A DNA stretch of 64,000 bases from Candidatus Krumholzibacteriia bacterium (GCA_050174015.1 JBFXKG010000004.1:100957-164956), one strand, 5' to 3'. Positions 2,002 to 32,376 are shown, numbered from the stretch's first letter. The notes: a model not told the origin generated them from the letters alone. Numbers and translations: made by a program.

Positions 2002-2628
2002 TCATTCCGCTCCCGGGGAGAAGGAATTGAAGAACTGCTGGATGAGAGGGTCGTCCCACAGGCCGCCCTCGACGTCCCAGGCCGAGAGCAGGTAGACCGC
2101 GCCCTCGACCAGCAGGCCCCGCAGCCAGACCTCGCCGACCCCGTCACCCGACGTCGCCCGGACGTCGACGCCCTCGCCCTGGCGGCCCGGACCGAATTCG
2201 CCGCTGATGAACTGCTCGCTCGTGACCAACGCATCCATCTGCTTGAGGACCTTGCGCAACTGCCGGGTGACCTCGTTCGGGCCGGCCGGGCCGCCCCTGC
2301 CGTCGGTGAGGTTGAAGAACGCCGTCACCGAACAGCCCTGACCCTGCTCCTCGAAGCGATCGCAGGTGACGGCGATCACCTGCACCGCCTCGATGTCGGG
2401 ATCGTCGTCTCCCAGCTGGTCCTGCTCGTTGTAGAGCTGCTTCACCTTGGCGCAGCCGGTCGGCATCATCACCCGGAAGTCGCCCAGGGAGGACGAATAC
2501 AGGTAGGGATTGTTCTGGTCGACCGTGGCGTTGTCCGACGTCGTGGTGATCTGCGGGTCGGTGGCCGTGGCGCTCGCCGCGCCGAGCAGGGCGGCTGTCG
2601 CCAGCAGGACGGTCATGATTTGCTGCAT
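2002..2628 (-). CDS. hypothetical secreted protein (208 aa, 4 Cys)
   Basis: Internal start MQQIMTVLLATAALLGAASATA (signal peptide) with GGAG RBS (gcgaggagccccATG); sits 11 nt downstream of the pepF stop. No recognisable family. Confidence 0.55.
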   Translation of the reverse strand: MQQIMTVLLATAALLGAASATATDPQITTTSDNATVDQNNPYLYSSSLGDFRVMMPTGCAKVKQLYNEQDQLGDDDPDIEAVQVIAVTCDRFEEQGQGCSVTAFFNLTDGRGGPAGPNEVTRQLRKVLKQMDALVTSEQFISGEFGPGRQGEGVDVRATSGDGVGEVWLRGLLVEGAVYLLSAWDVEGGLWDDPLIQQFFNSFSPGAE

Positions 2629-2639
2629 GGGGCTCCTCG

Positions 2640-4508
2640 CTAGGTGGTCCTGCCCAGGTCGGCGTGCAGGGCCTCGGCCTGGTCGATGAGGGATCCGAAA
2701 AGGGTCACCACGTCCTCCATGGGACCGGACGTGGCGAGGTCCACTCCGCCCAGCATCACGGTGGCCACGGGATAGCGGCTGCATCCCGAACGCAGGATGT
2801 CCAGGTATTGTTCCCGCTTCTCCGCACCCCCGGCCAGGACCTTCCGGGAAAGGGCCACCGCCGCCGAGTAGGCCGTGGCGTACTGGTAGACGTAGTAGTC
2901 GTAGTAGAAGTGCGGGATCCGCATCCAGGTCAAGGGGCTGCGGTCCGGATCGAAGTCCACCAGCGGCCCCCAGTACTTGACCAGCAGTTCCCGGTAGAGC
3001 TCGCCCAGGGCCTCGGCGGTCAGGGTCTGGCCCTGCTCGCCCAGGCGGTGGATGCGCAGCTCGAATTCGGCGAACATCGTCTGCCGGAACACGGTGTTGT
3101 TGATCTGGGACAGGTGGTAGTCCAGCAGGTAGGCCCGCCGCCGGGGGTCCGTGGTGGTGCGGACCAGGTGGTCCATCAGCAGGAGCTCGTTGAAGGTCGA
3201 GGCCACCTCGGCGGTGAAGATGGGGTAGCTGCCGTAGACGTACGGCTGGTTGTGCACCGCAAGCCAGCTGTGCATGGAATGCCCCAGCTCGTGGGCCAGG
3301 GTGAAGGAATCCCCCAGCTGGTCCGACCAGTTCAGCAGGATGTACGGCGGCGTGTCGTAGACGCCGTTGCTGTAGCCCCCGCTGCGCTTGCCGGCGTTCT
3401 CGTGGACGTCGATCCAGCCGCCCGCGATGCCCTCGCGCACCGTGCGCACGTAGTCCTCGCCCAGGGGCGCGAAGGCCTCGAGCATGACCTCGCACGCCTC
3501 GTCGTAGGTGAACTTGAACTCGCCCTCGGGAAAGAGGGGAACCGCCAGATCGTATTCCCGCAGCGGGTCAAGGCCGAGGACCGCCTGCTTGAGCGCGGTG
3601 TACCGGTGGATCGCCGGCAGGTTCTTGCCCACGGTGTCGAGCAGGGCGTGGTAGACCTCCGGCGGCACGGCGTCGGGGTGCAGGCTGGCCTCGAGGGTGC
3701 CCGCGTGACGCCGCGCCCCGGCGAAGAAGACGTGGTTCTTGACGTTGGCGTCCATGTTGGCGGCCATGGTGTTGCGCAGGGCGCCGTAGCCGTCCAGGAA
3801 GGCGGCGAAGGAGTCCCGCCGCACCCGCCGGTCCCGGGATTTCTGGAACTTGTAGTAGCGGGCCTTGGTCAAGGTCGCCGGCTCGCCGTCCTCCCCGGTG
3901 ATGGCGTCGAACTGGAGGTCGGCGTTGTCGAAGGCGTTGAAGATCTGGCCCGGCCCTCGCGACATCAACCCCGCCGAGGCCAGCAAGGCCTCCTGATCGG
4001 CGTCCAGGGTGTGGGGCCGCGCCCGCTGGACGTCGTCGAAGAAGTGACGGTAGACCTCCAGGCCGGCCTCCGCCGCGATGAACTCCTCCAGGATCCGCGG
4101 GTCCAGGTCCAGCAGCTCGGATTCGAACCAGCTGGTCGCCTCGGCGAACTTCACCGCCAGGCTGGACACCCGACCCTTGCGGGCCAGGTTCTCCCCGATG
4201 CGCGTGTCCTCGTCGCTCTTCATGCCCGCGAAGACCAGAGCCTTTTCCAGCCGGCGCCGGGACCCGTGGATGGCTTCGATGGTCTCCAGCAACCGCGCCG
4301 CCCCGTCGCCCAGGGTGCCCTGCCGCTCCGCCAGGCCGGGCAGGGACCCCTCGACCTCGGCGAAACATTCCTCCCAGGCCGCCCAGTCGGTGAAGATCAT
4401 CTCGAGCTTCCACTTGTAGCGGTCGTCGACGGCGCAGCGCTCGGCCAGGGCTCCGCCGCCGGGGATTTCCGCGTCCTTGAAGGGGGGCAGGATCTCTCTC
4501 AGGGGCAT
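2640..4508 (-). CDS. pepF: oligoendopeptidase F, peptidase family M3B
   Basis: Start trimmed to MPLREILPPF (cat at 4506-4508, GGAG RBS). HEXXH zinc site HELGHSMH, about 620 aa, M3B-like throughout. Confidence 0.9.
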   Translation of the reverse strand: MPLREILPPFKDAEIPGGGALAERCAVDDRYKWKLEMIFTDWAAWEECFAEVEGSLPGLAERQGTLGDGAARLLETIEAIHGSRRRLEKALVFAGMKSDEDTRIGENLARKGRVSSLAVKFAEATSWFESELLDLDPRILEEFIAAEAGLEVYRHFFDDVQRARPHTLDADQEALLASAGLMSRGPGQIFNAFDNADLQFDAITGEDGEPATLTKARYYKFQKSRDRRVRRDSFAAFLDGYGALRNTMAANMDANVKNHVFFAGARRHAGTLEASLHPDAVPPEVYHALLDTVGKNLPAIHRYTALKQAVLGLDPLREYDLAVPLFPEGEFKFTYDEACEVMLEAFAPLGEDYVRTVREGIAGGWIDVHENAGKRSGGYSNGVYDTPPYILLNWSDQLGDSFTLAHELGHSMHSWLAVHNQPYVYGSYPIFTAEVASTFNELLLMDHLVRTTTDPRRRAYLLDYHLSQINNTVFRQTMFAEFELRIHRLGEQGQTLTAEALGELYRELLVKYWGPLVDFDPDRSPLTWMRIPHFYYDYYVYQYATAYSAAVALSRKVLAGGAEKREQYLDILRSGCSRYPVATVMLGGVDLATSGPMEDVVTLFGSLIDQAEALHADLGRTT

Positions 4509-4657
4509 GACGTCTCCTCGAACGGATTCATGATTCGGATCGGGCGCACCCGCGCCTCGGGTGGATGCGGCGCCTGGGGCCTCCACCAAAATACTGCCCC
4601 CGGCCAGCATAGGCCAGATCCGGCCCGGTGCCAATCAAACCTGGAAAGGGGGCGTCA

Positions 4658-5518
4658 TCAGAGGGGTTTCCGGTAACAGGCCGGCAGGACGTACCTGTAC
4701 AGGCCGCCGTCCCGGTTGATCGTCTCGGAATGGCCGATGAAGAGGTAGCCGCCCGGAACCGTGTTGTCGGCGAACTTCTCGACAAGCTTGGCCCGGGTGG
4801 GGTTGTCGAAGTAGATCATGACGTTACGGCAGAAGATCGCGTCGAACGGGCTGCGGAACCTGAACACCCGGTTCATGAGGTTGTGGCGTCGGAAGTGGAC
4901 CAGGGTGCGGATGGGGTCCCCGACGCGGTACATTCCGCCCGGCTGCTTGATCAGGTAGCGGTTCTTCAGGGCGGGGGGCAGCTTGGACACCGCATCATGG
5001 GGGTAGATGGCCGCCTGGGCCTTTTGCAGGGCCTTCATGGAGATGTCGGTCGCCAGCAGGACCGGCTTCAGACGGGCTCCGGACGCCGCCAGGGCTTCCG
5101 CCATGAGCATCATCAGCGTGTACGGTTCCTCCCCCGTGGAGCATCCCGCGCACCAGACCCGGAGTTCGGGGTCGCCCGCGGCCGTCCTCCGCCTGATGGC
5201 CTCGGGCAGGACCGTGGCGGCGAAATGGTCGAAGTGCTCGTGCTCCCGGTTGAAGTAGGTGTGGTTGGTCGAGATGCGATCGGCCAGTTCGCTCAGGGCT
5301 TCCCCGCTGGGATCCCCCTGGACCCAGTGCAGGTAGTCCCCGAACGTCGAGAACCCCCGCAACCGGAGCACCTTCTGCAGGCGCCCCACCACGAGGGTCT
5401 TCTTCTGCGAGCTGAGTGATATCCCGAAGTTCTCGTAGACCAGACGCCGGACGGCGTCGAACTCCCGGTCCGAGATCCGCGACTCCACGGGCGCGGTGAG
5501 GGTGTCCTGGGGGCTCAT
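4658..5518 (-). CDS. cheR: chemotaxis protein methyltransferase CheR
   Basis: Start trimmed to MSPQDTLTAPVESRISDREFDAVRRLVYENFGISL. SAM-MTase motifs (VWCAGCSTGEEPYTL) and CheR C-terminal region. Its ATG shares one base with the cheY stop (TGATG). Confidence 0.85.
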   Translation of the reverse strand: MSPQDTLTAPVESRISDREFDAVRRLVYENFGISLSSQKKTLVVGRLQKVLRLRGFSTFGDYLHWVQGDPSGEALSELADRISTNHTYFNREHEHFDHFAATVLPEAIRRRTAAGDPELRVWCAGCSTGEEPYTLMMLMAEALAASGARLKPVLLATDISMKALQKAQAAIYPHDAVSKLPPALKNRYLIKQPGGMYRVGDPIRTLVHFRRHNLMNRVFRFRSPFDAIFCRNVMIYFDNPTRAKLVEKFADNTVPGGYLFIGHSETINRDGGLYRYVLPACYRKPL

Positions 5519-5943
5519 CAGGTCCTGTCCGCTCCCGAACCGACCAGTTCCACCTTCAGGCCGACTTCCTTCAGGACATCCATGAACTTCCGCTTGACGA
5601 TGGGCTTGACCAGGTAGCCGTCGGCCGCGTCCTTGAACGACTTGCGGATGACCTCGTGGTCCTCGAGCGCGCTGGTCATGATGATCTTGGCTCCCTGCCC
5701 CACCTGGAGCCCCTTGCGCTCCTCCAGCTTCCGGATGTCGACCAGGGTCTCCTGGCCGCACTTGCCCGGCATCATGATGTCCAGACAGATGAGATCGTAG
5801 TGGCTCCCGCTGTCCAGGGCGGCCTGCACGGCCGCCACGGCTTCGTTGCCGTTGACGGCGACGTCGCAGTCCCCGTAGGATTCCAGATATCGGCACAACA
5901 GGCGGCGGCTGATGAAGTCGTCTTCCACGATCAGGATCTGCAT
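5518..5943 (-). CDS. cheY: CheY-like single-domain response regulator
   Basis: Start trimmed to MQILIVEDDFISRRLL. Receiver domain with DD...D...K pattern (LICLDIMMPGKCG, IMTSA, YLVKP). Confidence 0.85.
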   Translation of the reverse strand: MQILIVEDDFISRRLLCRYLESYGDCDVAVNGNEAVAAVQAALDSGSHYDLICLDIMMPGKCGQETLVDIRKLEERKGLQVGQGAKIIMTSALEDHEVIRKSFKDAADGYLVKPIVKRKFMDVLKEVGLKVELVGSGADRT

Positions 5944-6194
5944 GGGTCGTTCCTCACGTTGGATCCGGCCTGAAGGCGCGGCGCGGACGGTAGGCGGAAA
6001 TCCGGACCATCCCCTCGGTCCTGCCTCACCTCCGATATCGGTCACGATTCCCGGACCCTTGAATAAATCTTCAGGTCCGCAGGTACTCTTGATGGCCGGC
6101 TCGCCGGGATTATCTTGGGAGCGATTCCGGCCCGGCCGGTGTTCCAGCAGGATCTGCCCCACTCCATGATCATGGCACGAAAAGGAAGGCGAAC

Positions 6195-6986
6195 ATGGGC
6201 TTGCTCGGCACCTTGATCGGGGGCGGCCTCGGTTTCATGTTTTTCGGTCCGCTGGGAGCCATCCTCGGCGGCGCCCTGGGCTCGAACATCGAGCTGGACG
6301 GGGGCTCCCGCCCCCATCCCGGCGCCAGGCGGCCCGGCCAGGCCTGGGGAACCCGCCCCGGCGGCAGGGTCGATCCCCTGCAGGCCCAGCAGATCTTCCT
6401 GGTCGCCATGATCAGCCTGGCGGCCAAGGTCGCCAAGGCGGACGGACGGGTCACCCCGGACGAGGTCGCCTCGTTCGACCAGTTCCTAAGGACCAACCTG
6501 GGGATGCCGGCCGACGAGCGACGCATCGCCGCCCGCATCTTCAACGAGGCGCGCGACTCGGCGATCCCCTCTTCCGAGTTCACCGCCCAGATCCGGCAGA
6601 CCATCGGCCGCCATTCCCAGCGCCTGCACGATCTGGTGACCCTGCTGGTGGGCATCGCCCTGGCCGACGGGGTGATGCACCCTGCCGAAGAGGACCTGAT
6701 CCGCACCATCGCCCGCGATCTCGGCCTCGGCGAACGGGCCTTCCAGGAGGCCCTCGCCATGTTCCGCCCCGAACAGAACCTCGCGAGCGCCTACGCCGCC
6801 CTCGGGCTCGATCCCGGCGCCACGGACGCCGAGGTCCGCAAGTCCTACCGCCGGCTGGCCAAGGAATATCATCCCGACATCATGGCCAACAAGGGCCTCG
6901 GGGAGGACTTCCAGAAGTTCGCCGAGGAGAAGATGCGCGCCGTCAACGGCGCCTACGCCGCCATCAAGGAAGCGCGGGGTTTCTGA
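6195..6986 (+). CDS. djlA: DjlA-like membrane co-chaperone (TerB-like domain plus C-terminal J domain)
   Basis: N-terminal Gly-zipper TM (MGLLGTLIGGGLGFMFFGPLGAILGGALG), a TerB-like middle domain, and a C-terminal DnaJ J-domain (YAALGLDPGATDAEVRKSYRRLAKEYHPD). RBS aaaggaagg. Confidence 0.75.
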   Translation: MGLLGTLIGGGLGFMFFGPLGAILGGALGSNIELDGGSRPHPGARRPGQAWGTRPGGRVDPLQAQQIFLVAMISLAAKVAKADGRVTPDEVASFDQFLRTNLGMPADERRIAARIFNEARDSAIPSSEFTAQIRQTIGRHSQRLHDLVTLLVGIALADGVMHPAEEDLIRTIARDLGLGERAFQEALAMFRPEQNLASAYAALGLDPGATDAEVRKSYRRLAKEYHPDIMANKGLGEDFQKFAEEKMRAVNGAYAAIKEARGF

Positions 6987-7807
6987 TGCCCGAACTGCCC
7001 GAGGTGGAGAGCGTCGGCCGCGCCTTGCTGGCCAACCTCCGGGGACGGCGCCTGACGGGATTGCAGGTCGCCTTTCCGGGCGTCCTGACCCAGACCCCGC
7101 ACCGGATCCGCCGGGCCCTGGTGGGCCGGACCCTCACCGGACTTCACCGGCGGGGCAAGTATCTCATCCTGCACTTCGCCGACGGCGGCGGCGATCCCGC
7201 CTACCTGATGATCCACCTGCGCATGACCGGCCAGATCTTCGTGCTGGACGGCTACCTCCCCGACAAGCACGTCCACGTGACCTTCGACTTCGACGGCCTG
7301 CCGGTGCATTACCGGGACATCCGCAAGTTCGGCCGCCTCACCCTCGTGGAGGACGGGGTGGCGCCCCGCGCCCTCGACCACGTCGGACCGGACATGCTGG
7401 AAGTGCGCTGGCCCGAATGGAGGGAGCGGATCGCCGCGCGCGGCGCCCCCGTCAAGGCCTGCCTGCTGGACCAGGGCATCGCCTCGGGCCTCGGCAACAT
7501 CTACGTGGACGAGTGCCTGTTCCTGGCCGGGATCCATCCCCTGGCCCGCCCCTGCGACCTGGACGAGGCGGAACTGCGGGAAGTGCTGCTGCGCGCCAAG
7601 CAGGTGTTGCGCCTGGCCATCCGCCACGGCGGCACCACCTTCCTGAACTTCACGAACTTCGTGGGCAAGCCGGGGAACTTCCGGCGCAAGCTGCGGGTCT
7701 ACGGGCGGGCGGGCGAGCCCTGCCGGGATTGCGACGCCACCCTGCAGAAGCTGACCGTGGCCGGGCGAACGACCGTCTTCTGTCCCCGGTGTCAGCCGGC
7801 TCCCTGA
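6986..7807 (+). CDS. mutM: formamidopyrimidine-DNA glycosylase (Fpg/MutM)
   Basis: N-terminal MPELPEVE catalytic Pro2/Glu, H2TH domain, C-terminal zinc finger CRDCDATLQKLTVAGRTTVFCPRCQ. Start overlaps the djlA stop (TGATG). Confidence 0.9.
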   Translation: MPELPEVESVGRALLANLRGRRLTGLQVAFPGVLTQTPHRIRRALVGRTLTGLHRRGKYLILHFADGGGDPAYLMIHLRMTGQIFVLDGYLPDKHVHVTFDFDGLPVHYRDIRKFGRLTLVEDGVAPRALDHVGPDMLEVRWPEWRERIAARGAPVKACLLDQGIASGLGNIYVDECLFLAGIHPLARPCDLDEAELREVLLRAKQVLRLAIRHGGTTFLNFTNFVGKPGNFRRKLRVYGRAGEPCRDCDATLQKLTVAGRTTVFCPRCQPAP

Positions 7808-16034: not shown

Positions 16035-17105
16035 CTAGTGCCCGTGGGCCTCCTCGTGACCGTGATGACCATGGTCATGAGGCAGCCACAGGGCAATATA
16101 GACCGTCGACAGCAGGGTGAAGACCAGCGCCTGGATGGTGCTGGACAACAGACCCAGGAAGTAGAACGGGAACTGCAGGGGCAGACCCGGCACGAAATCG
16201 GATCCGGTGAGGCCGTAGCTGATGCCGGCGCCCAGCAGGACCATGGTGGCCACCAGGGTCTCCTCGCCGAAGATGTTGCCGAACAGACGCAGGCTCAGCG
16301 AGATGGGCTTGATCAGCTCGCCCACCAGATGCAGGGGGAAGAACAGCCAGACCAGGGCCCACTCGACCCCTGACCTGGGGGATCCCGCCATGTGGAACAG
16401 GTACCCGCCCACCCCGTTGAGCCTCAGGGCGGTCCCCTGCACGTACAGGAAGGTCAGCGCCCCCAGGGCGAAAGTGGTGTTGGCGAAGCTGCTGGTCGCC
16501 GCATGCCCCAGAGGGATGATGCCGAACAGGTTGTTGCAGAGGATGAAGATGAACAGGGAGCCGAGGTAGGGCGTGTACTTGCGGGCGTCCTCGCCGAGGA
16601 TGGTCCGGAACAGGGAGTAGAGCCCCCCGAAGATCATCTCGACGGCCATCTGCATGCGGCCGGGCCGGCGGGCGTCCAGCTTCCTCGACAGGATGACGAA
16701 GACCACCGCCAGGACCAGGGCCATGAACAGGGAGAAGATGGGATCCTTGGCCGCGTCCAGCCTGGCGGCGAAGTCGGCAGGGACCCACTGCTCGATGAAG
16801 GTCAGGGCGCTGGGCAGATGGGGCATGCCCCCGTGGCCACCCCCGTGCTCGCCGTTCGCATCCCCGTGGGCCTCGGCGGCATGGGGATCGGCGGCGTGGA
16901 CGTCGATGGGCGCGTGATCGTCCCCGTGGTCGGTCTCCTGGCCGTGGGCGTCATGCTGTTCGGCGGCCTGCCGGGTGTCGTGGGCGTCATGCTGGGCGGA
17001 AGCGACGGACCCCACGCCCGATGCGAACAGGACGGCACCGAGGACGAGCAGCCAGGCAGCCGGGACTTTGGTCTGCAATTTGCGCATGTTCATCCAGATC
17101 ATTCC
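16035..17105 (-). CDS. atpB: F-type ATP synthase subunit a with His/Asp-rich N-terminal extension and His-rich C-terminus
   Basis: Start trimmed to MIWMNMRKLQTKVPAAWLLVLGAVLFASGVGSVASA (signal peptide); alternative in-frame ATGs lie at 17096 and 17090. Then about 60 aa of His/Asp-rich sequence (QHDAHDTRQAAEQHDAHGQETDHGDDHAPIDVHAADPHAAEAHGDANGEHGGGHGGMPH). Canonical a-subunit follows, including the conserved Arg region (LSLRLFGNIFGEE). C-terminal tail HDHGHHGHEEAHGH. Confidence 0.85.
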   Translation of the reverse strand, partial: GMIWMNMRKLQTKVPAAWLLVLGAVLFASGVGSVASAQHDAHDTRQAAEQHDAHGQETDHGDDHAPIDVHAADPHAAEAHGDANGEHGGGHGGMPHLPSALTFIEQWVPADFAARLDAAKDPIFSLFMALVLAVVFVILSRKLDARRPGRMQMAVEMIFGGLYSLFRTILGEDARKYTPYLGSLFIFILCNNLFGIIPLGHAATSSFANTTFALGALTFLYVQGTALRLNGVGGYLFHMAGSPRSGVEWALVWLFFPLHLVGELIKPISLSLRLFGNIFGEETLVATMVLLGAGISYGLTGSDFVPGLPLQFPFYFLGLLSSTIQALVFTLLSTVYIALWLPHDHGHHGHEEAHGH

Positions 17106-17545
17106 GGTCCATCGTGAGGGGTCGGCTTGGTGGCAGTTCCCGGCCCGGAGGCCCCTGGGGACACGACAACCTGCCGGGTCTTGATCTCCATCGAACGTGC
17201 CCGGGAACCGAGCACCACCAGGACGACCATCAGCAAAGTGAAGCCGACGGCGTGACTCACCCCTGGAAACGGTCGGGAAAATAACACCCAGACCGCAACC
17301 GCGTAAACAGCCAATTTGGCCAGGAACCAGAGAAAAACCGCGAATCCGTTGCGGGGCGCGCCTGGCGGCACCACCGCCGCGCGCAACAATCTTTCGAGGA
17401 CGAAGAACCCCGTCACCGCCCACAGGGCCGTCAGCAGCACGCCCAGGGCGAAGGGGCGCGAAACGGCCAGCCAGCACGCTCCGGACGCCGGCAAGGCGAT
17501 CAAAATAGTCCAAAATCGAACGCGGGCAAGGAGGGAATCGGTCAA
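17099..17545 (-). CDS. atpI: putative ATP synthase protein I (AtpI/AtpZ-like small membrane protein)
   Basis: Four predicted TM helices (FWTILIALPASGACWLAV, ALGVLLTALWAVTGFFVL, FAVFLWFLAKLAVYAVAVWVLF, VGFTLLMVVLVVLG) immediately upstream of atpB. Start proposed at the TTG at 17545, preceded by GAGGAA (agaggaaaacgccgttTTG). The long 5' extension in the ORF track is discounted. Confidence 0.4.
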   Translation of the reverse strand: MTDSLLARVRFWTILIALPASGACWLAVSRPFALGVLLTALWAVTGFFVLERLLRAAVVPPGAPRNGFAVFLWFLAKLAVYAVAVWVLFSRPFPGVSHAVGFTLLMVVLVVLGSRARSMEIKTRQVVVSPGASGPGTATKPTPHDGPE

Positions 17546-17712
17546 AACGGCGTTTTCCTCTTGCTCGGGTGGACTGTCGGCGCATTCGGAAGCATCGGGG
17601 GATGCTGCGTCGGCGGTAAAGATGGTGAATTGATAGGGAATGTCAACAAAATGGGCGGCGGACGGGGTGGGGGGACTCCGGCCTGGGGATGACGCCGCCG
17701 CCCTGCGACCAA

Positions 17713-17741
17713 CCGGAATTCCATTCCAGGATCCGGAACGG
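17713..17741. promoter_or_regulatory. palindromic TTCCGGAA-type motif upstream of atp operon (site A)
   Basis: CCGGAATTCC-ATTCCAGGATCCGGAACGG; shares the ATTCC...TCCGGAACG pattern with sites at 21527 and 21820. Lies between the upstream terminator (17867-17895) and the atpI start. Confidence 0.25.
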
Positions 17742-17866
17742 CGCCGGGATATGATTCTCAAGCCCCGATGGGGAACAGCGGACGGACATTCGGAACGGTC
17801 ATCCTGGCCACATCGATCATCGAAATGAAATTATTGATTCCAAAGGGTTTGAACGAACGCCGCCGC

Positions 17867-17895
17867 AAAAAGGGGCCGCCCCGAAGGGCGGCCCC
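17867..17895 (-). terminator. Rho-independent terminator after the tandem-AAA gene
   Basis: Perfect 10-bp stem GGGGCCGCCC / GGGCGGCCCC with CGAA loop (17872-17895), followed on the minus strand by UUUUU (plus-strand A-run 17867-17871); 40 nt after the stop at 17934. Confidence 0.7.
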
Positions 17896-17933
17896 ACCTT
17901 CATCCGGCCGGGACTCGCTGCCGGCATTCCCGC

Positions 17934-20147
17934 TCAGAAGCCCACCACCCTGACGGGTCCGGCCGCCCGATGCTTGAGGGCCACCTCCTCCTCCAGGAGG
18001 GCCAGGAGATCGGCGTGCGTCGTCCGGCGGACCCCCTGCATCCGGAGGTTGCGCCGGATCAAGGCCATGTCGGCGGCCGTCAACGGGTCGAGGGCGCACA
18101 ATCGCCGCCTTTCCTCGGCCGAAGGGGCGCCCGGAGCCAGGGGCGCCAGCAGCCGGTCGTAGGTGGCCTCGATCCCCGCCGGCTCCAGGGGTCGGAACTC
18201 GACCTTCAGGGCGAACCTGCGCAGGGCGGCCGGATCCAGGGCGTCCAGCCGGTTGGTGGTGCAGATGACGGCCCCGTGATGCTGTTCGATCTGCACGAGC
18301 AGTTCGTTCACCATGCTGATTTCCCAGGTACGCCGGGAACGGCTGCGGGACGCCAGGAAGGTGTCGACCTCGTCGATCACCAGGACCGCCCCGGTCGCCG
18401 CGGCCTCGGCGAAGGCCTTCGCGAGGTTGCGCTCGGTCATGCCCACGTAGGGGTCGAGGATCTCGCTGGCCTTGCGCGTGACCACCGGGCGGCCCGCCGC
18501 GGCAGCCAGGTACCCTGCCGTCAGGGTCTTGCCGGTTCCCGGCTGGCCGTGGAAGAGCATGGCCAGGGCTCCCCGCTCGCCGGCCACGGCCGACTTGTCC
18601 AGATCCTTGACGTACCGGACCATCTGGCGGATCAGCGCCCGCAGGGGCCGCGAGGGATTCACCCCGCACTCGAGGAACTCGACGGCGGGCCCCTTGCGGA
18701 CCTCGACCCGGCGCTTGACCCCCTGCAGCCCCGCCTGGGCTTCGAGAGTCCTGCCAAAGGCCTCGCGACAGGCCCGCGGGGTGGTCTGGATCCCCGACGC
18801 CACCCTGGCGGCCATGGCGAACACCGCCGGAGCCAGGGTGAACTCCCCGGCCAGCCTGGTCACCTCCGCGGCGGTGAAGTGCCTCTTGATGCGGTGCCGC
18901 CGGAGGATTCCGTCGAGCATCGCCGCCCGCTTTTCCCCGTCCAGGGGAGGCAACTCCAGGCTGTAGGCGAACCGGCGCCTGACCGCCGGATCGATGCCGT
19001 CGTGTTCGTTGACGATCCAGATGCCCCGCGAGCCGGGCAGTTCCAGGATCCCGTTGAGGTAGCCCTTGTCCATCACTTCACCCCGGTGGAACCAGGGGCG
19101 GTCGGTGTTGAGCAGCTGGTCGGCCTCGTCCACGAAGACGAGAGCTCCCGCCTGTCCCGCCGCCATTTCCAGGCAGGCGGCCAGGGCGGCACGGCGGGCC
19201 CGGGCCTCGTTCTGGCGCTGGCCCAGCACCTCGAACCCCCGCAGTCCCAGTTCCGCGCACATGGCGCGGCACAGGGTGGTCTTGCCGGTGCCCGGAGGTC
19301 CGTAGACCAGGATGTGCACCGGGGCGTCCCCTCCGGAGGTCAACAGGAGCCGCATCAGGTCGAGCTTGCCCGTCTCGATTCCGAGGTCGTCGGCCGCCAA
19401 AGCGGATCCGGGAACCGGGCGGAAGAGTTCCTGCCTCGCGGGCGCCTGATCGGGATCGGCGAAGAACGGCAGGAATTCCTCGCTGATCTGCAGCCACTTG
19501 CGGTCGGTGTCGAGGATGCCCATGCCGGCCAGCTTGCCTCCCAGGACCGTCCCCATTTCCGCGGGAGCCAGTCCCAGGGCGGTGACCAGGCCGTCCCTGC
19601 CCCGGGGCTCGTCGCAGTGGAGGTGGTTCTCGAAGAAGTCCTGGACCGGTTCCCACCAGCGCATCGCCGTGAAGAAGAAACAGAACTCGGTCTCCTGCTC
19701 GGAAAGCCCGAACAGCCGGCGGGTCCCATCGAGATGCCGGGCCAGCGGCGAGGCCTGGAAACGGTCCCTGCCGGCGGCCCACCCGGTCAGGCGGTCGGAC
19801 AGGGTCGAGGCCAGACGCTGGAGACGGGCCGGAGGGGCCCCGTTGTGGACCACCGAGACCACCGACGCCATGTCCTGGGGGTCTCCCCAGGCCCGGCGCA
19901 GGTCGGGCAGCAGGCGGTCCCGGTCGGTGTCGCTCAGCAGGTCGTCCACCAGGGTCTGGGTTCCCGCCGGATCGACCCCGGCGACCCAGAAGGCGAACCC
20001 GAGGGTTTCCCGGTCGATGGTGCGCCGGCGGGCGACCGTGCGGGCGGCCCACTCCGCACAGGCGCAGAGAGTGAACTGGAGGTTGGCATCGGGATTTCCG
20101 GGTGTCTTCTCCTTCCGCTTGCGGGCTCGGGCGTAGAATCGCGTCAT
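17934..20147 (-). CDS. tandem AAA+ ATPase (two classical AAA modules) with about 300-aa N-terminal domain of unknown function
   Basis: Start trimmed to MTRFYARARKRK with strong RBS aaggagattgcccATG. AAA1: Walker A GPPGTGKTT, Walker B ALVFVDEADQL, Arg finger AVRRRF. AAA2: Walker A GQPGTGKTL, Walker B VLVIDEVDTF, Arg finger AALRRF. 737 aa. Confidence 0.8.
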   Translation of the reverse strand: MTRFYARARKRKEKTPGNPDANLQFTLCACAEWAARTVARRRTIDRETLGFAFWVAGVDPAGTQTLVDDLLSDTDRDRLLPDLRRAWGDPQDMASVVSVVHNGAPPARLQRLASTLSDRLTGWAAGRDRFQASPLARHLDGTRRLFGLSEQETEFCFFFTAMRWWEPVQDFFENHLHCDEPRGRDGLVTALGLAPAEMGTVLGGKLAGMGILDTDRKWLQISEEFLPFFADPDQAPARQELFRPVPGSALAADDLGIETGKLDLMRLLLTSGGDAPVHILVYGPPGTGKTTLCRAMCAELGLRGFEVLGQRQNEARARRAALAACLEMAAGQAGALVFVDEADQLLNTDRPWFHRGEVMDKGYLNGILELPGSRGIWIVNEHDGIDPAVRRRFAYSLELPPLDGEKRAAMLDGILRRHRIKRHFTAAEVTRLAGEFTLAPAVFAMAARVASGIQTTPRACREAFGRTLEAQAGLQGVKRRVEVRKGPAVEFLECGVNPSRPLRALIRQMVRYVKDLDKSAVAGERGALAMLFHGQPGTGKTLTAGYLAAAAGRPVVTRKASEILDPYVGMTERNLAKAFAEAAATGAVLVIDEVDTFLASRSRSRRTWEISMVNELLVQIEQHHGAVICTTNRLDALDPAALRRFALKVEFRPLEPAGIEATYDRLLAPLAPGAPSAEERRRLCALDPLTAADMALIRRNLRMQGVRRTTHADLLALLEEEVALKHRAAGPVRVVGF

Positions 20148-20192
20148 GGGCAATCTCCTTTCGGATCGGTTGATGCCGAATCTAACCCGAAA

Positions 20193-20212
20193 CCGTTCCA
20201 AATTTCGGAACG
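20193..20212. promoter_or_regulatory. inverted repeat CGTTCC-N7-GGAACG upstream of the AAA+ gene (site B)
   Basis: CCGTTCCAAATTTCGGAACG, 45-65 nt upstream of the ATG at 20147 and downstream of the WYL-gene terminator. Shares the CGGAACG half-site with sites C and D. Confidence 0.3.
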
Positions 20213-20249
20213 ATCGGTCAGTGGCCGGATCGACCGGAAAGGAATGCCC

Positions 20250-20279
20250 AAAAAAAGGCCCGGCGGGGAGAGCCGGGCC
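20250..20279 (-). terminator. Rho-independent terminator between the WYL regulator gene and the AAA+ gene
   Basis: 8-bp stem GGCCCGGC / GCCGGGCC with 7-nt loop (20257-20279), followed on the minus strand by seven U (plus-strand A-run 20250-20256). Confidence 0.7.
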
Positions 20280-20464
20280 AGATGAGCAATCCGTTTGCAC
20301 GGATCAGTTCCGACCGTTTAGCGAATTGTTTTACGTGGCTGCAAGCAATTCGGCTCCAAATCACCACGGGGCGGCGGGGCCCCCAGGTCCGGGTTTCCAC
20401 ATCCGACCGGTCAACACGATAACAAATCCTCCTCGAAATGTCAAGCGAAATCAATTCAAGTCGT

Positions 20465-21457
20465 TTATTTATAATATTTTACAGTTTCGGCCAATTCCGC
20501 CTGGAGCCGCTCGACCAGGGCCTTGGGGGCCAGCAACCGCGCACTGGATCCGAGGCTCAGGATCCAGGCCATGACCTCCGGCTCGCTGGTGGACGTGAAG
20601 GCGACCTCGATCCGGCCGTTCTTCTTCTCCCGGATGGTCTGGTCCGGGTTCAACTTCCGCTCGGCGGTGAAGTTCGCGGCCCATCCCCACAGCTCGGCCT
20701 TCACCTTGAAGGTCTTGCCCTTGATCACCCCGAAATGCGTGTTGAACACCTTGTCGAAGTCGTAGTCGGTCACCGGCTTGAACGGCGTGTCGGTCAGGGC
20801 GACCCCCGCGAACCGGTGCAGGGCGAACAGCGGATCGTAGCCCGGATTCCTGAACACCCGGTCGGGCATCTTGGCGTAGCGGGCGTGCACGTAGATGGTC
20901 TCGTGGTGCGAGAAGATCTTCAGGGGCTTGATCCGGAAGACCTTCGGCTCCTTGTCCTGAAGGCGCCGGTAGGCGACCTCGCAGACCCGGTGCTGCTCCA
21001 GCCCCTGGACCAGGGTGCTGAGATTCCCGTAATGCGGGGTGTAGTCGATGACCCCGGGACGGTAAACGCCGAAGGCGCTGCGGTCGGGATCCCGTCCGCC
21101 CTGGTGCAGCCTCGCCGTCTTGTCCACGGCGCGCATGGCCGCGGTGAAGTGCTCGCGCCCCAGCAGATGGCTGGTGAAGGCCCGGCACATCAGCAGCACC
21201 TCCAGTTCGTCGTCCGTCAAGGGCAGCGTCGCCTTGGGCCGGCGCGCCCGCGGGATGCGGTAGAAGCTCCGGTTGCCCTTGGGCACCCGTTCGATGCCGG
21301 TCCCCCCCTCGTCCAGGTCCGCGACCAGGCGCAGGACCGTCTGCTTGCTGCATTGCAGGCGTGAGCTGAGTTCGGTGAGGGAATACTCCCGGTCGTTGAA
21401 AAGGAGCATGGCGTAGAGCTCGAGCAGGCGGGACCCGGGGGAGATGCCGGCTGTCAT
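20465..21457 (-). CDS. HTH-WYL-WCX transcriptional regulator (PafBC/DriD/BrxR-like)
   Basis: Start trimmed to MTAGISPGSRLLELYAMLL (cat at 21455-21457). N-terminal wHTH (YSLTELSSRLQCSKQTVLRLVADL). Middle WYL-like segment (KPLKIFSHHETIYVHARY ... FALHRFAGV, an IYV variant of the WYL triad). C-terminal extension of about 100 aa. Confidence 0.8.
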   Translation of the reverse strand: MTAGISPGSRLLELYAMLLFNDREYSLTELSSRLQCSKQTVLRLVADLDEGGTGIERVPKGNRSFYRIPRARRPKATLPLTDDELEVLLMCRAFTSHLLGREHFTAAMRAVDKTARLHQGGRDPDRSAFGVYRPGVIDYTPHYGNLSTLVQGLEQHRVCEVAYRRLQDKEPKVFRIKPLKIFSHHETIYVHARYAKMPDRVFRNPGYDPLFALHRFAGVALTDTPFKPVTDYDFDKVFNTHFGVIKGKTFKVKAELWGWAANFTAERKLNPDQTIREKKNGRIEVAFTSTSEPEVMAWILSLGSSARLLAPKALVERLQAELAETVKYYK

Positions 21458-21526
21458 GGGGCGTCCTTTCACGGAGGGGATTCGGTGCCGCCTCGATTCT
21501 CCAGCAGCCGGCAGGATCCCGCAAGA

Positions 21527-21546
21527 CCATTCCGGATACCGGAACG
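21527..21546. promoter_or_regulatory. palindrome ATTCCGG-ATA-CCGGAACG upstream of the WYL regulator (site C)
   Basis: cATTCCGGATACCGGAACGc; arms TTCCGG / CCGGAA with 3-nt spacer, 70-90 nt upstream of the WYL ATG. Candidate autoregulatory operator. Confidence 0.35.
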
Positions 21547-21819
21547 CAAAGACGATCAGGCCCGGCGGACCAACGGTCCGCCGGGCCGCCGCATCGGAAG
21601 GCTCGCCCAACCTTCCTCCACGGTCACCGGACCCGGATCAGGGCTCCAGGGTCAGGTCGATGGTCACCTTGGCGATGCCCGGCCTGCGGCCTCATCACGG
21701 GCCTTCCTGATCTCGATCACGTTCATGCCTTCTCCTCCGGTCGATTGTTCCGATGCTGTCGGCAATCATACCCCGGACCCGACGATCTATTTGCCAGGAT
21801 GTCGATAATAGCGGCGGGT

Positions 21820-21840
21820 CATTCCGGAATCCGGAACGAC
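21820..21840. promoter_or_regulatory. second copy of the ATTCCGGAATCCGGAACG palindrome (site D)
   Basis: cATTCCGGAATCCGGAACGa, near-identical to site C, about 365 nt upstream of the WYL ATG in the 467-nt intergenic region after the phosphoesterase gene. Confidence 0.3.
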
Positions 21841-21924
21841 AGGGCCGGAAAGCGGCGTCCACCGGGCCCAAGGGAGACGGACAGGGTCCCTTGGCGCGAA
21901 TCCTTCGACCCGGGCGGAGCCGGG

Positions 21925-22905
21925 CTACCCGGTCCGATCATGACAGGACGTGGTGAAATGGGCGTCGGATAGACTCTCGCCCGGCCGATGGGTGTAGGCC
22001 GCGAGGCACCCGTCCCCGGCCACCGAATAGTCCAGGCAGACCACGTTGTGCGCCTGGATCTCCGGCTTTCCCTTCAGCCAGTAATGGCCGAAGAAAACCG
22101 GGGGATCCGCTGCGGGATAGCCGGGGTTGCCCAGCTCCAGCGCCCTGGAATCCTCGAGGGGAGCGTCGGGAACCCCGGCCATCGACCCGGGCGGGAAGAG
22201 CATGGTGCGGTAGGTCGGATCCTCGGGGATGAGGAACCAGCGGACCCTGATGGCCCGCCGGGGATGGCCGTCCTTGTCCAGAGCCGGTCGCGCCCCTGCC
22301 GGAAGCGGCGCTTCCTTGCCCTTGAGCAGCCATTCCGTCGCCTGGAAGAGAGCGTTCCCGGGACCGGGCGGGATCAGCGCGGCCGCCATGAACCCGTCGG
22401 TGACGCCTCCGTGCTGGGCGAGGGCGGCGTCCACGGCCCGGACCGCACCGGGATCCCAGCAGGCATGGACCACGCGCAAATGCTCGCTGGCGAGGTAGAG
22501 TGGCAGGGTGCGGAACCAGTCCAGCCAGTGGTCCGGCACCGTCCGTCCTCCCAGCTGATCGAGGGTGTGGCGGACCTGGCTCTCGTTCCGGGGGGAATGG
22601 CTCCTCAGGTACCGGCCTTCATGGACGGTCGCATAGGCGATGGCGTTGAACTCGTGGTTGCCCATCAAGGCGTAGGCGTTCCCGGCCTCCACCATCGCGC
22701 GGACGATCTCCAGGGTCTCGAGGATCTCCGGACCCCTGTCGATGAAATCCCCCACGAACACCGCCTTGCGGTCGGAATCGCCATGGCGGAATCCCAGGCC
22801 CGCCCGCTCGTAACCGAGTTTCCCCAGGAGTTCCCGGAGCCGCAGCGCGTGGCCGTGGACGTCCCCGATGATGTCGTAGCAGGAATGGTGGGGTAGCATC
22901 GCCAT
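21925..22905 (-). CDS. metallophosphoesterase, ApaH/PrpE-like (diadenosine tetraphosphatase / PPP-family phosphatase fold)
   Basis: DIIGDVHGH, GDFIDRGP, GNHE calcineurin-like motifs; 326 aa; start MAMLPHH (cat at 22903-22905). Confidence 0.8.
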   Translation of the reverse strand: MAMLPHHSCYDIIGDVHGHALRLRELLGKLGYERAGLGFRHGDSDRKAVFVGDFIDRGPEILETLEIVRAMVEAGNAYALMGNHEFNAIAYATVHEGRYLRSHSPRNESQVRHTLDQLGGRTVPDHWLDWFRTLPLYLASEHLRVVHACWDPGAVRAVDAALAQHGGVTDGFMAAALIPPGPGNALFQATEWLLKGKEAPLPAGARPALDKDGHPRRAIRVRWFLIPEDPTYRTMLFPPGSMAGVPDAPLEDSRALELGNPGYPAADPPVFFGHYWLKGKPEIQAHNVVCLDYSVAGDGCLAAYTHRPGESLSDAHFTTSCHDRTG

Positions 22906-23052
22906 GATCTCGCCGCCGCCAAGTTGTTGAAAAGTGACCGGTTATACCCAAGGAGTCGTCGAGCGGCCCAATATACCACGTTGACCGGATCCGGCCAAAC
23001 TCGTCGGTCTCCCCTGCCGGTCGCCCCGCGGGGACACCCTGGTGTTTTCCCA

Positions 23053-23068
23053 GAAATTCCGGAATTGC
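23053..23068. promoter_or_regulatory. perfect palindrome AATTCCGGAATT upstream of the phosphoesterase gene (site E)
   Basis: gaAATTCCGGAATTgc, about 150 nt upstream of the ATG at 22905. A CCGGATCCGG palindrome lies at 22988-22997. Confidence 0.25.
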
Positions 23069-23216
23069 TAAAGGAAAAGAGGGATCACCAACCACCTATT
23101 TCGAGGCCGACCCGGACCGGGTTGCTCGAAAGGCACGATATCGCCGACGGCCAGGCGGCTGGACACCCTGGCCATGGTGGAGGTGCTCGGAGACCTCATG
23201 GCCAGGGTGTGACCGG

Positions 23217-32142: not shown

Positions 32143-32376
32143 CGGCTCGTCACTCCTCCATTCCGGGCGACCCTACTTCCACGGTGAAGGCCAGGGAATC
32201 GTTTTCGGGGTCGGCATCGCCGGGGGAACGACCGCAGGCGCCGGGCATGGGATCCAATGTATCACCCCGGGTCCGGACCTTCAATTCCCGCCGGACCGGT
32301 CGGAATTTCCTCGATCCTCCCGGGAATCTGGTACAATGGTCTCAATTCTCCACACGATTCCCAAAGGAGGAACCGG

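What the first reader, a model, noticed from the sequence alone, without database searches (positions are those of the whole stretch)
17713..23068. Recurring TTCCGGAA-type palindromes in five intergenic regions of one 5.4-kb stretch
Sites: A 17713-17741 (CCGGAATTCC...TCCGGAACGG, upstream of atpI); B 20193-20212 (CCGTTCCAAATTTCGGAACG, upstream of the AAA+ gene); C 21527-21546 (ATTCCGGATACCGGAACG, upstream of the WYL gene); D 21820-21840 (ATTCCGGAATCCGGAACG); E 23053-23068 (AATTCCGGAATT, upstream of the ApaH-like phosphoesterase). C and D are near-identical 18-mers; all share TTCCGG / CCGGAAC half-sites. A relaxed copy also occurs at 32282-32310 upstream of the low-GC secreted-protein gene. Clustering of one palindrome family in consecutive promoters suggests a small regulon controlled by one dimeric factor, plausibly the adjacent WYL protein.
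Basis: seen in the sequence. Interest (0 to 1): 0.55.

Follow-up and report, generated by a model that had tools for sequence, protein, structure and literature searches.

The report
Operator sites of a WYL regulator
Four of the six reported palindromes are real binding sites (CGTTCC-N7-GGAACG) for the neighbouring WYL-family transcription factor, which probably switches on an adjacent AAA+ ATPase gene and a few neighbours much as the known damage sensor DriD does; the pairing is conserved across several bacterial phyla but has not been described.

Summary
Sites A-D are real and form one family. The true motif is a 23-bp palindrome, A-N-C-R-TTCC-R-T-N3-A-Y-GGAA-Y-G-N-T (core TTCC-N7-GGAA), not TTCCGGAA. 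In the 64-kb window only A-D score at least 20 bits; the next best scores 13.6. All four lie between genes within 4.1 kb around an HTH-WYL-WCX gene. Site E and the 32282 copy have other spacings, do not score, and E is not kept in a 95% relative.

In 79 orthologous loci (Krumholzibacteriia, Desulfobacterota, Gemmatimonadales; GC 36-72%), 74 carry the motif just upstream of the WYL gene. Only the N7 spacing is enriched (51 hits; at most 2 for any other spacing).

A ~740-aa tandem AAA+ (Cdc48-like) gene is the main second target (37 loci). A -10 hexamer TAnnnT, often TGnTAnnnT, sits exactly 7 nt from the 23-mer in 83 of 232 flanks, placing the site centre near -31, where a -35 box would be. This matches the Caulobacter activator DriD (CGAC-N7-GTCG, fixed distance to -10), which is also the best structural match.

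Verdict: a local regulon of a DriD-like WYL regulator, a new member of a known kind. Activator versus repressor, the effector and the AAA+ function remain inferred.

The parts
20465..21457 (-). Gene for the regulator: 330-aa HTH-WYL-WCX protein (COG2378/YafY type)
   Evidence: Pfam WCX 41.9 bits, WYL 28.8 bits, HTH_11 24.0 bits. The AlphaFold model's best PDB matches are DriD (E 1e-16) and PafBC. 647 homologues were found. The recognition-helix residues C36 S37 K38 Q39 are invariant in 42 sequences.
21526..21548 (.). Site C: 23-bp palindrome TGCGTTCCGGTATCCGGAATGGT (gene sense), 69 nt upstream of the WYL start codon. Autoregulatory site.
   Evidence: 21.8 bits. The same position is kept in L001 and L006-L010, each followed by the conserved cTTGCrG-GATCCT. 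74 of 79 orthologues have such a site.
21496..21524 (-). Candidate promoter elements downstream of site C: weak -10 GATCCT (21513-21518) at the canonical +7 offset, and an overlapping sigma-70-like TTGCGG (21519-21524)-N17-GAGAAT (21496-21501)
   Evidence: Read from the sequence. The block is conserved in 7 Krumholzibacteriia-type loci. Which of the two promoters is used is not determined.
20192..20214 (.). Site B: ATCGTTCCGAAATTTGGAACGGT (gene sense), the best-scoring site, upstream of the AAA+ gene
   Evidence: 26.4 bits. Equivalent sites lie upstream of the AAA+ gene in L001, L006-L008 and L010 and in 37 loci overall.
20179..20184 (-). -10 hexamer TAGATT of the AAA+ promoter, exactly 7 nt from site B. 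Predicted transcription start near 20172.
   Evidence: The offset-7 TAnnnT rule holds in 83 of 232 flanks and in 30 of 40 AAA+ promoters.
17934..20147 (-). Main target gene: 737-aa tandem AAA+ ATPase (all-alpha N-domain, D1, and a Cdc48/VCP-like D2)
21818..21840 (.). Site D: GTCGTTCCGGATTCCGGAATGAC (gene sense)
   Evidence: 22.0 bits. Equivalent sites precede a 60-aa ORF in L007-L010.
21805..21810 (-). -10 hexamer TATTAT, 7 nt from site D
21640..21726 (-). Decayed small ORF served by site D: the N-terminus MNVIEIRKARDEA and the C-terminus GIAKVTIDLTLEP lie in different frames
   Evidence: The intact 60-aa homologue is in L008 1493-1675, and also in L009 and L010.
17720..17742 (.). Site A: TCCATTCCAGGATCCGGAACGGC (plus strand), between the AAA+ terminator and the atp operon
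   Evidence: 20.1 bits. It is present in L006 only, and absent from L007 and L008.
17750..17755 (+). -10-like TATGAT, 7 nt from site A on the PLUS strand. It points toward 17760-17930 (a 61-codon ORF or untranslated RNA, antisense to the AAA+ 3' end), not toward the atp operon.
   Evidence: The minus-strand hexamer at the same offset is TTGGTC. The atp operon has its own TTGACA near 17650-17655 (read).
17872..17895 (-). Intrinsic terminator of the AAA+ gene
20257..20279 (-). Intrinsic terminator between the WYL gene/riboswitch and site B, so the AAA+ gene has its own promoter

Best explanation
Sites A-D are operators for a homodimer of the WYL-family regulator encoded at 20465-21457.

Shown by comparison: each winged-helix domain would read one CGTTCC half-site, and the two half-sites are 7 bp apart.

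Inferred: at target promoters the 23-bp site lies exactly 7 nt upstream of a -10 hexamer (TAnnnT, often TGnTAnnnT). The dimer is therefore centred near -31, where a -35 box would normally be. From there it most likely recruits or stabilises RNA polymerase holoenzyme, as shown structurally for Caulobacter DriD. By analogy, it would do so once its WYL domain has bound an effector (single-stranded nucleic acid in DriD, PafBC and CapW).

In this window the regulon is local:
- the tandem AAA+ ATPase gene (site B);
- a decayed small ORF (site D);
- the regulator's own gene (site C, with a different conserved geometry that also allows a basal sigma-70 promoter);
- an unassigned plus-strand transcript (site A).

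My confidence in the parts: about 0.85 that A-D are operators of this WYL protein, about 0.6 that it acts as a DriD-like activator rather than a repressor, and about 0.35 that the effector is single-stranded nucleic acid.
For: Reality of the motif:
- Shuffles and the matrix scan.
- 116 sites of at least 16 bits in 849 kb of related loci, against 2 in reversed-sequence controls.

Link to the WYL gene:
- 74 of 79 orthologues have a site within 320 bp upstream, and only N7 is enriched. This holds over GC 36-72% and several phyla.
- The WYL protein is the only DNA-binding protein common to the loci.
- The recognition helix is invariant, matching the invariant TTCC/GGAA core.

Promoter geometry:
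- TAnnnT at offset 7 in 83 of 232 flanks, against 0-22 at any other offset.
- The oriented matrix shows an upstream A-tract, TG at -15/-14, and an A-rich position where +1 is predicted.
- 30 of 40 AAA+ promoters follow the rule.
- 5 sites carry a -10 on both sides, serving divergent genes.

Similarity to DriD:
- Best Foldseek PDB hits are DriD (E 1e-16), then PafBC, and only then the repressors CapW and BrxR.
- The model has three helices between the wHTH and the WYL domain.
- The DriD operator is ATACGAC-N7-GTCGTAT, overlaps the -35 position and sits at a constant distance from -10 in promoters that lack a -35 (PMC13004042). In the didA oligo, the 21-bp site is followed by 7 nt and then ACAATC (the -10 assignment is mine).

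Action in trans: a 26.3-bit site lies about 100 nt upstream of a metK-DUF7663-AAA+ operon with no WYL gene within 5 kb.
Against: - There is no experimental evidence of binding, transcription starts or induction.
- Many target promoters carry an extended -10 (TGn), which can work without a -35 or an activator. A dimer at -42 to -20 could then equally be a repressor.
- 38 of 116 sites have no TAnnnT at offset 7, including site C.
- Only about 17% identity to DriD (phmmer E 0.05).
- In a profile alignment, the DriD ssDNA-contact residues Tyr240 and Arg288 align to non-equivalent residues (my mapping), so the effector may differ.
- The weight matrix was trained on the same loci it was used to score, so the counts of strong sites are partly circular. 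The N7-versus-other-spacing test and the window shuffles are not.
- Whole genomes could not be scanned, so 'local regulon' holds only for this 64-kb window and for 6-kb flanks.
Confidence: 0.6

Rival explanations
1. Same protein and same sites, but the WYL dimer is a repressor, like the WYL regulators BrxR and CapW. It sits on the -35 region of constitutive extended -10 promoters and is released by an effector, so the AAA+ gene and its neighbours are derepressed.
For: - The site covers about -42 to -20, which RNA polymerase must occupy.
- 50-70% of the oriented promoters carry TG at -15/-14, which can replace a -35.
- In divergent Desulfobacterota loci, one site lies only about 29 nt from the WYL start codon, overlapping any possible WYL core promoter.
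- WYL repressors of neighbouring genes are well documented (PMC13004042 introduction).
Against: - Single-nucleotide constancy of the site-to--10 distance across phyla is expected for a protein that contacts polymerase, not for simple occlusion.
- The model's structural neighbours are the activators DriD and PafBC (E 1e-16 to 1e-13), well ahead of CapW and BrxR (1e-8 to 1e-5).
- An upstream A-tract suggests an alpha-CTD contact.
- No defence system was recognised next to the gene.
Confidence: 0.27
2. The palindromes are chance or compositional products of GC-rich DNA, or they are bound by an unrelated factor encoded elsewhere, and the adjacency to the WYL gene is coincidental.
For: The half-site CGGAACG alone is not enriched in the window. 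TTCCGGAA-like 8-mers with one mismatch are common (52). E and the 32282 copy do look like chance.
Against: 0 of 100 shuffles reach the observed count. The enrichment is N7-specific and occurs upstream of 74 of 79 orthologues in genomes of 36-72% GC. Reversed-sequence controls give 2 sites against 116. No other DNA-binding gene is shared by the loci.
Confidence: 0.04
3. The inverted repeats act at the RNA level, as 5'-UTR hairpins or terminator-like structures, rather than as protein-binding DNA.
For: Each site can form a 6-8-bp stem with a short loop. A phage contig carries four copies of a similar palindrome placed just after a consensus promoter, where it would be transcribed.
Against: In the cellular loci the -10 hexamer lies downstream of the palindrome, so most sites would not be transcribed from their own promoter. 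Conservation is of base identity (TTCC/GGAA invariant), not of pairing with compensatory change. The sites serve genes on either side.
Confidence: 0.03

Closest known systems
DriD (Caulobacter crescentus WYL activator of the SOS-independent DNA-damage response) and its Acinetobacter relative DdaA
   Same: - wHTH, helical linker, WYL and WCX architecture; best structural match.
- Homodimer-type palindromic operator with half-sites 7 bp apart (CGAC-N7-GTCG against TTCC-N7-GGAA).
- The operator overlaps the -35 position at a constant distance from the -10, in promoters without a recognisable -35.
- The regulator's own promoter is among the targets (PMC13004042; PMC13010146).
   Different: - About 17% identity, with no significant single-sequence match.
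- Different half-site sequence.
- The targets seen here are a tandem AAA+ ATPase, DUF2779, ClpP-like and small ORFs, not didA, bapE, recA or similar.
- Found in Krumholzibacteriota, Desulfobacterota and Gemmatimonadota rather than Proteobacteria.
- The effector is untested, and two DriD ssDNA-contact residues are not matched.
PafBC (actinobacterial WYL activator; RecA-NDp promoter motif, sigma adaptation)
   Same: A WYL activator whose DNA motif lies a fixed few nucleotides upstream of a TAnnnT -10 and replaces the -35 (the motif sequence is recalled from my own knowledge; the position is in PMC13004042). Second-best structural match. In Actinobacteria the gene is linked to an AAA+/proteasome system (PMC5656591 abstract).
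   Different: PafBC is a heterodimer or fusion of two WYL proteins. It binds a short non-palindromic motif at -26 and only together with RNA polymerase. Here there is a single 330-aa protein and a symmetric 23-bp site.
SiwR (Mycobacterium smegmatis WYL activator)
   Same: A homodimeric WYL activator of the adjacent operon through a 19-bp imperfect palindrome lying between the -35 and -10 regions of a divergent promoter (PMC10693628).
   Different: Its targets are DinB/YfiT-like genes and it responds to oxidative or genotoxic stress. It is actinobacterial and has a different motif.
BrxR / CapW (WYL repressors of BREX and CBASS defence systems)
   Same: A WYL regulator encoded next to the genes it controls, autoregulated, with an inverted-repeat operator in the intergenic region.
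   Different: They are repressors of recognised anti-phage systems. Here PADLOC finds no defence system; there is only generic AAA similarity to IetA, far below the NCBIfam IteA equivalog cut-off. They are also weaker structural matches.

Membership tests
WYL-domain transcription factors (wHTH-WYL-WCX, COG2378/YafY type) | WYL domain (PF13280) | tested here: met
   28.8 bits against a cut-off of 21.8.
WYL-domain transcription factors (wHTH-WYL-WCX, COG2378/YafY type) | C-terminal WCX dimerisation domain (PF25583) | tested here: met
   41.9 bits against a cut-off of 23.9. A profile of the family aligns this region to DriD at E 2e-7.
WYL-domain transcription factors (wHTH-WYL-WCX, COG2378/YafY type) | N-terminal winged helix-turn-helix | tested here: met
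   HTH_11 scores 24.0 bits, just under its cut-off of 25. The model shows H7-20, H27-34, H38-50 and a beta-hairpin at 56-67. Full-length Foldseek alignments to DriD and PafBC support it.
DriD-type homodimeric WYL activators | Palindromic operator with two half-sites separated by 7 bp | tested here: met
   The TTCC-N7-GGAA core within a symmetric 23-mer. Only N7 is enriched. The DriD operator is given.
DriD-type homodimeric WYL activators | Operator at a constant distance from the -10, over the -35 position, in promoters without a -35 consensus | tested here: met
   TAnnnT at offset 7 in 83 of 232 flanks. In the oriented matrix, the place where a -35 box would fall lies inside the palindrome and reads roughly C-R-T-N-A-T. 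This is a computational result only.
DriD-type homodimeric WYL activators | Helical (three-helix) linker between the wHTH and WYL domains that contacts RNA polymerase | tested here: inconclusive
   Helices 82-99, 101-118 and 140-154 are predicted, but residues 113-134 have pLDDT below 50. Contact with polymerase cannot be tested here.
DriD-type homodimeric WYL activators | Sequence-level orthology to DriD | tested here: not met
   phmmer E 0.05, covering the C-terminal part only; 17% identity in the structural alignment. It is a separate subfamily.
DriD-type homodimeric WYL activators | Activation by ssDNA binding to the WYL domain; DNA-damage regulon | not testable with these tools
   The targets seen are AAA+, DUF2779, ClpP-like, DnaB_C-like and a metK operon. 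This is suggestive of a stress response, not diagnostic.
PafBC / RecA-NDp promoters | Two-WYL-protein heterodimer and a short non-palindromic motif at -26 | tested here: not met
   A single 330-aa gene and a symmetric 23-bp site.
BrxR/CapW-type defence-island repressors | Adjacent recognised anti-phage system (BREX, CBASS or similar) | tested here: not met
   PADLOC gives only generic AAA-domain hits to IetA. NCBIfam IteA scores 114 bits against a cut-off of 510. There are no hits for the Metallophos or DUF2779 proteins. The neighbours are the atp operon and glycosidases.
ECF-sigma promoters (-35 GGAAC) | GGAAC about 16-17 nt upstream of the -10 element | tested here: not met
   GGAAC ends 10 nt before the TAnnnT, and the motif is symmetric.

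The most novel reading that the evidence does not exclude
This WYL subfamily and its partner, a Cdc48-like tandem AAA+ ATPase with a previously unclassified all-helical N-domain, form an undescribed stress-response module conserved across phyla. The regulator would sense a nucleic-acid or metabolite signal and switch on an unfoldase, with ClpP-like, DUF2779 nuclease-like and small-protein accessories in some lineages. This would be a functional counterpart of the PafBC/proteasome link in Actinobacteria.

The module may also be tied to S-adenosylmethionine status. A SAM-II riboswitch with a terminator lies directly upstream of the AAA+ promoter here, and elsewhere a motif-bearing metK-DUF7663-AAA+ operon is found.
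Probability: 0.3. Interest if true: 0.65.

Novelty: new member of a known kind. Interest (0 to 1): 0.5.

Why it matters
WYL regulators are emerging as nucleic-acid sensors that control DNA-damage and anti-phage responses, but only a handful (PafBC, DriD, DdaA, SiwR, BrxR, CapW) have defined operators.

This analysis gives an uncultured-lineage subfamily a precise 23-bp operator, a promoter rule (site-N7-TAnnnT, centre near -31) and a conserved target, from sequence alone. The same N7 half-site spacing and the same site-to--10 geometry as in DriD, at only about 17% identity, suggest that this activation geometry is ancestral to a large part of the WYL family.

It also points to an uncharacterised tandem AAA+ ATPase as the output of the response in Krumholzibacteriota, Desulfobacterota and Gemmatimonadota. 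That is directly testable by gel shift, in-vitro transcription and reporter assays.

Tried and rejected
- TTCC-N8-GGAA was a miscount on my part (0 hits), corrected to N7.
- E and the 32282 copy are not family members.
- The Metallophos gene is not a regulon member. No site lies upstream of it here or in L008. The 13.6-bit hit inside its coding region was set aside as probably chance or coding sequence.
- The atp operon is unlikely to be a target of site A. The site is not conserved in L008, and its -10 faces the other way.
- ECF-sigma promoter reading rejected because the spacing is wrong.
- Defence-system assignment of the AAA+/WYL pair is not supported.
- Pfam on about 20 other site-linked ORFs was mostly empty. 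It returned ClpP, DnaB_C and DnaA-ATPase hits only.
- The viral-contig scan for CGTTCC-N7-GGAACG-N9-TAnnnT gave 46 stretches of DNA with no WYL or AAA+ homologue. About half look like random core matches. One phage repeat has a different geometry.
- Mapping DriD ssDNA-contact residues by sequence was possible only for the WCX part and was not convincing.
- I skipped a metagenome-wide pattern scan because I expected chance hits to swamp it.
- Full-text search found no paper describing this module. The library is limited to open-access papers.

Full report
**What is in the sequence**

The 5.4-kb stretch holds four minus-strand transcription units.
- An ATP-synthase operon (ATP-synt_A ORF, start at or before 17585).
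- A 737-aa protein with two AAA domains (17934-20147).
- A 330-aa HTH-WYL-WCX protein (20465-21457).
- A calcineurin-like phosphoesterase (21925-22905).

Intrinsic terminators follow the AAA+ gene (17872-17895) and lie between the WYL gene and the AAA+ promoter (20257-20279). A strong hairpin lies between the small ORF and site C (read). The units are therefore separate.

What they share is RTTCC-N7-GGAACG, not TTCCGGAA.

**Is it more than chance?**

- TTCC-N7-GGAA occurs 6 times in 64 kb against 1.16 expected, and no shuffle reaches 6. Four of the six are A-D.
- The half-site alone (CGGAACG) is not enriched, so the signal is the paired arrangement.
- A 23-bp symmetric weight matrix was derived from related loci: A-N-C-R-T-T-C-C-R-T-N3-A-Y-G-G-A-A-Y-G-N-T. 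It scores A-D at 20.1, 26.4, 21.8 and 22.0 bits. The next best window position scores 13.6 bits.
- Site E (abutting half-sites) and the 32282 copy (N13) do not score. E is degenerate in a closely related locus (95% identical WYL protein; about 85% DNA identity around E) whose flanking promoter is conserved.

**Related loci**

The WYL protein has hundreds of full-length homologues at 40-72% identity. Eighty genome loci were fetched, from Krumholzibacteriia, Desulfobacterota (Syntrophales, Desulfobacterales), Gemmatimonadales and some bins labelled Bacteroidota or Fibrobacteraceae, with GC from 36 to 72%.
- Exact TTCC-N7-GGAA sits just upstream of the WYL gene in 48 of them.
- With the matrix, 74 of 79 have a site of at least 16 bits within 320 bp upstream. 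The site centre is typically 46-52 or 100-115 nt before the start codon.
- Spacings N3-N11 other than N7 give 0-2 hits against 51 for N7.
- Matrix scores are bimodal: 116 sites of at least 16 bits in 849 kb against 2 in reversed-sequence controls. The matrix was trained on these loci, so this count is partly circular. The spacing test is not.
- The recognition-helix residues C36-S37-K38-Q39 are invariant across 42 sequences, in line with the invariant TTCC/GGAA core.

**Targets**

- ORFs next to strong sites fall mainly into two clusters: the WYL gene (74 loci) and a ~740-aa tandem AAA+ protein (37 loci).
- In Desulfobacterota the two genes are usually divergent and share a single site in an intergenic region of about 100 bp. 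In the Krumholzibacteriia clade they are tandem, each with its own site.
- Less frequent targets are a ~500-aa DUF2779 protein (present in 21 loci, site-linked in at least 5), a ClpP-like protease, a DnaB_C-like protein and several unannotated small proteins.
- Site D corresponds to a site that precedes an intact 60-aa ORF in L008-L010. In the window that ORF has decayed.
- A more distant AAA+ homologue lies in a metK-p139-DUF7663-AAA+ operon. A 26.3-bit site precedes it, and no WYL gene lies within 5 kb, which argues for action in trans.
- Another AAA+ relative sits beside a different WYL subfamily with a different palindrome.
- A still more distant paralogue without a WYL neighbour has no site.

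**Promoter anatomy**

I aligned all 116 sites and asked where TAnnnT occurs in the flanks.
- There is a single sharp peak: 83 of 232 flanks at exactly 7 nt from the edge of the 23-mer, against 0-22 at every other offset.
- 73 sites have the hexamer on one side, 5 on both, and 38 on neither.
- Oriented on the hexamer, the consensus reads: A-rich tract, 6 nt, 23-mer, 4 nt, TG, N, TAtnnT, then an A-rich position 7 nt later, where transcription would start. That places the dyad near -31 and the site over -42 to -20.
- Where a -35 hexamer would fall, the sequence is the centre of the palindrome, with no resemblance to TTGACA.
- 30 of 40 AAA+ promoters obey the rule.

In the window:
- B is followed by TAGATT (20179-20184, minus strand).
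- D is followed by TATTAT (21805-21810, minus strand).
- A is followed by TATGAT, but on the plus strand (17750-17755).
- C is followed by a conserved GATCCT. This overlaps a conserved TTGCRG-N17-GAnAAT sigma-70-like promoter found in all seven loci of the clade.

**Comparison with known systems**

- The AlphaFold model (pLDDT 78.7) is most similar to DriD (E 1e-16), then PafBC (about 1e-13 to 1e-14), then CapW and BrxR (1e-8 to 1e-5).
- Sequence similarity to DriD is marginal (E 0.05; 2e-7 with a family profile, C-terminal part only).
- The cryo-EM study of DriD reports that it binds the pseudo-palindrome ATACGAC-N7-GTCGTAT. [quoted passage not shown] In the didA oligonucleotide printed there, the 21-bp site is followed by 7 nt and then ACAATC. 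I take ACAATC as the -10 because the authors' 'optimised -35' variant puts TTGACA 16 nt upstream of it. My geometry differs from this by about one base pair.
- DdaA of Acinetobacter uses a DriD-like CGAC-N7-GTCG site (PMC13010146).
- SiwR uses a 19-bp palindrome between the -35 and -10 regions (PMC10693628).
- PafBC differs: it is heterodimeric, and its motif at -26 is non-palindromic.

The system therefore works like DriD but is not a DriD orthologue. It is a separate WYL subfamily with its own half-site and its own targets.

**Mechanism, with the status of each step**

- Shown: the motif, its N7 specificity, its linkage to the WYL gene and to the AAA+ gene, and its fixed distance to a -10-like element.
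- Inferred: the WYL protein binds it as a dimer; it activates rather than represses; the signal is a nucleic-acid ligand.

The repressor alternative is serious (about 0.27), because extended -10 promoters need no -35 and the site would block polymerase. I favour activation for three reasons: the single-nucleotide phasing across phyla, the upstream A-tract, and the structural ranking of activators above repressors.

**The AAA+ protein**

- Its second ATPase domain is Cdc48/VCP-like.
- It falls below every curated family cut-off.
- Its 270-residue N-domain is confidently predicted as all-helical, with no convincing structural neighbour.
- Its function is unknown. An unfoldase role, with ClpP in some lineages, is a guess based on family.

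**Novelty and score**

- I found no paper describing this WYL-AAA+ module or this operator in the searchable library.
- It is a new member of a known kind: a DriD-like WYL regulator.
- It is useful because it gives an exact, testable operator, promoter rule and target for uncultured phyla, and because it extends the DriD geometry to a very distant subfamily.
- Interest 0.5.

Noticed in passing
window 20298-20377 (minus strand); promoter 20416-20444; terminator 20257-20279: A full-length SAM-II (SAM_alpha, RF00521) riboswitch aptamer: 56.9 bits against a gathering score of 36, E 4e-11. A near-consensus TTGACA-17-TATCGT promoter precedes it, and an intrinsic terminator follows directly, then site B and the AAA+ gene. 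No ORF follows the aptamer. It also occurs in the 95% relative L006 (57.5 bits) but not in L007-L010. It could be an orphan riboswitch RNA or a SAM-dependent attenuator feeding into the AAA+ gene. The family is unusual outside Proteobacteria and Bacteroidota (from my own knowledge).
   Followed up: partly
L086 2442-2464 (site), 2548-7226 (operon): In an unrelated 70% GC metagenome contig, a 26.3-bit copy of the motif lies about 100 nt upstream of an operon: metK (SAM synthetase), a 139-aa ORF, DUF7663, and a homologue of the AAA+ protein (34% identity). No WYL gene lies within 5 kb. Together with the riboswitch above, this is a second, independent link between this AAA+ family and SAM.
   Followed up: partly
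window 23094-23156 versus L006 2863-4458: Relative to its close relative L006, the window lacks about 1.6 kb that carries a DUF2779 gene divergent from the Metallophos gene. The junction lies about 30 nt from palindrome E.
   Followed up: partly
window 21640-21726 (minus strand): The ORF downstream of site D is a frameshifted, internally deleted remnant of a conserved 60-aa protein (MDIQQIK...VTIDLTLE in L008-L010) of unknown function.
   Followed up: yes
L087 1900-2115 and 4315-4535: A related tandem AAA+ gene (37% identity) sits next to a different 320-aa WYL regulator and UvrD-like helicases. The intergenic regions carry another palindrome (CCGTCCAC-N6-GTGGACGG, GTTCCACA...TGTGGAC). This suggests that the AAA+/WYL pairing is older than the operator specificity.
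   Followed up: no
L095 9395-9417, L100 4428-4450, L109 2880-2902, L126 7501-7523 (IMG/VR contig UViG_3300025030_000005, 113 kb): One phage contig carries four copies of a consensus TTGACA-17-TATAAT promoter followed 4 nt later by the perfect palindrome ATCGTTCCGCTGGTCGGAACGAT. The core is the same as the WYL operator, but it is placed after the -10, as an operator at +1 or a 5' RNA hairpin. No WYL or AAA+ homologue is present in the stretches held.
   Followed up: partly
window 16035-17585 (minus strand): The longest ORF for the ATP-synthase a-subunit gene is 516 aa, but the Pfam domain covers only residues 284-497. In L008 a separate 125-aa gene precedes atpB, so the window ORF probably merges an atpI-like gene or upstream non-coding DNA with atpB.
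   Followed up: no
window 17788-17799: A lone half-site, CATTCGGAACGG, lies 50 nt from site A inside the putative plus-strand transcript. It does not score with the matrix.
   Followed up: no
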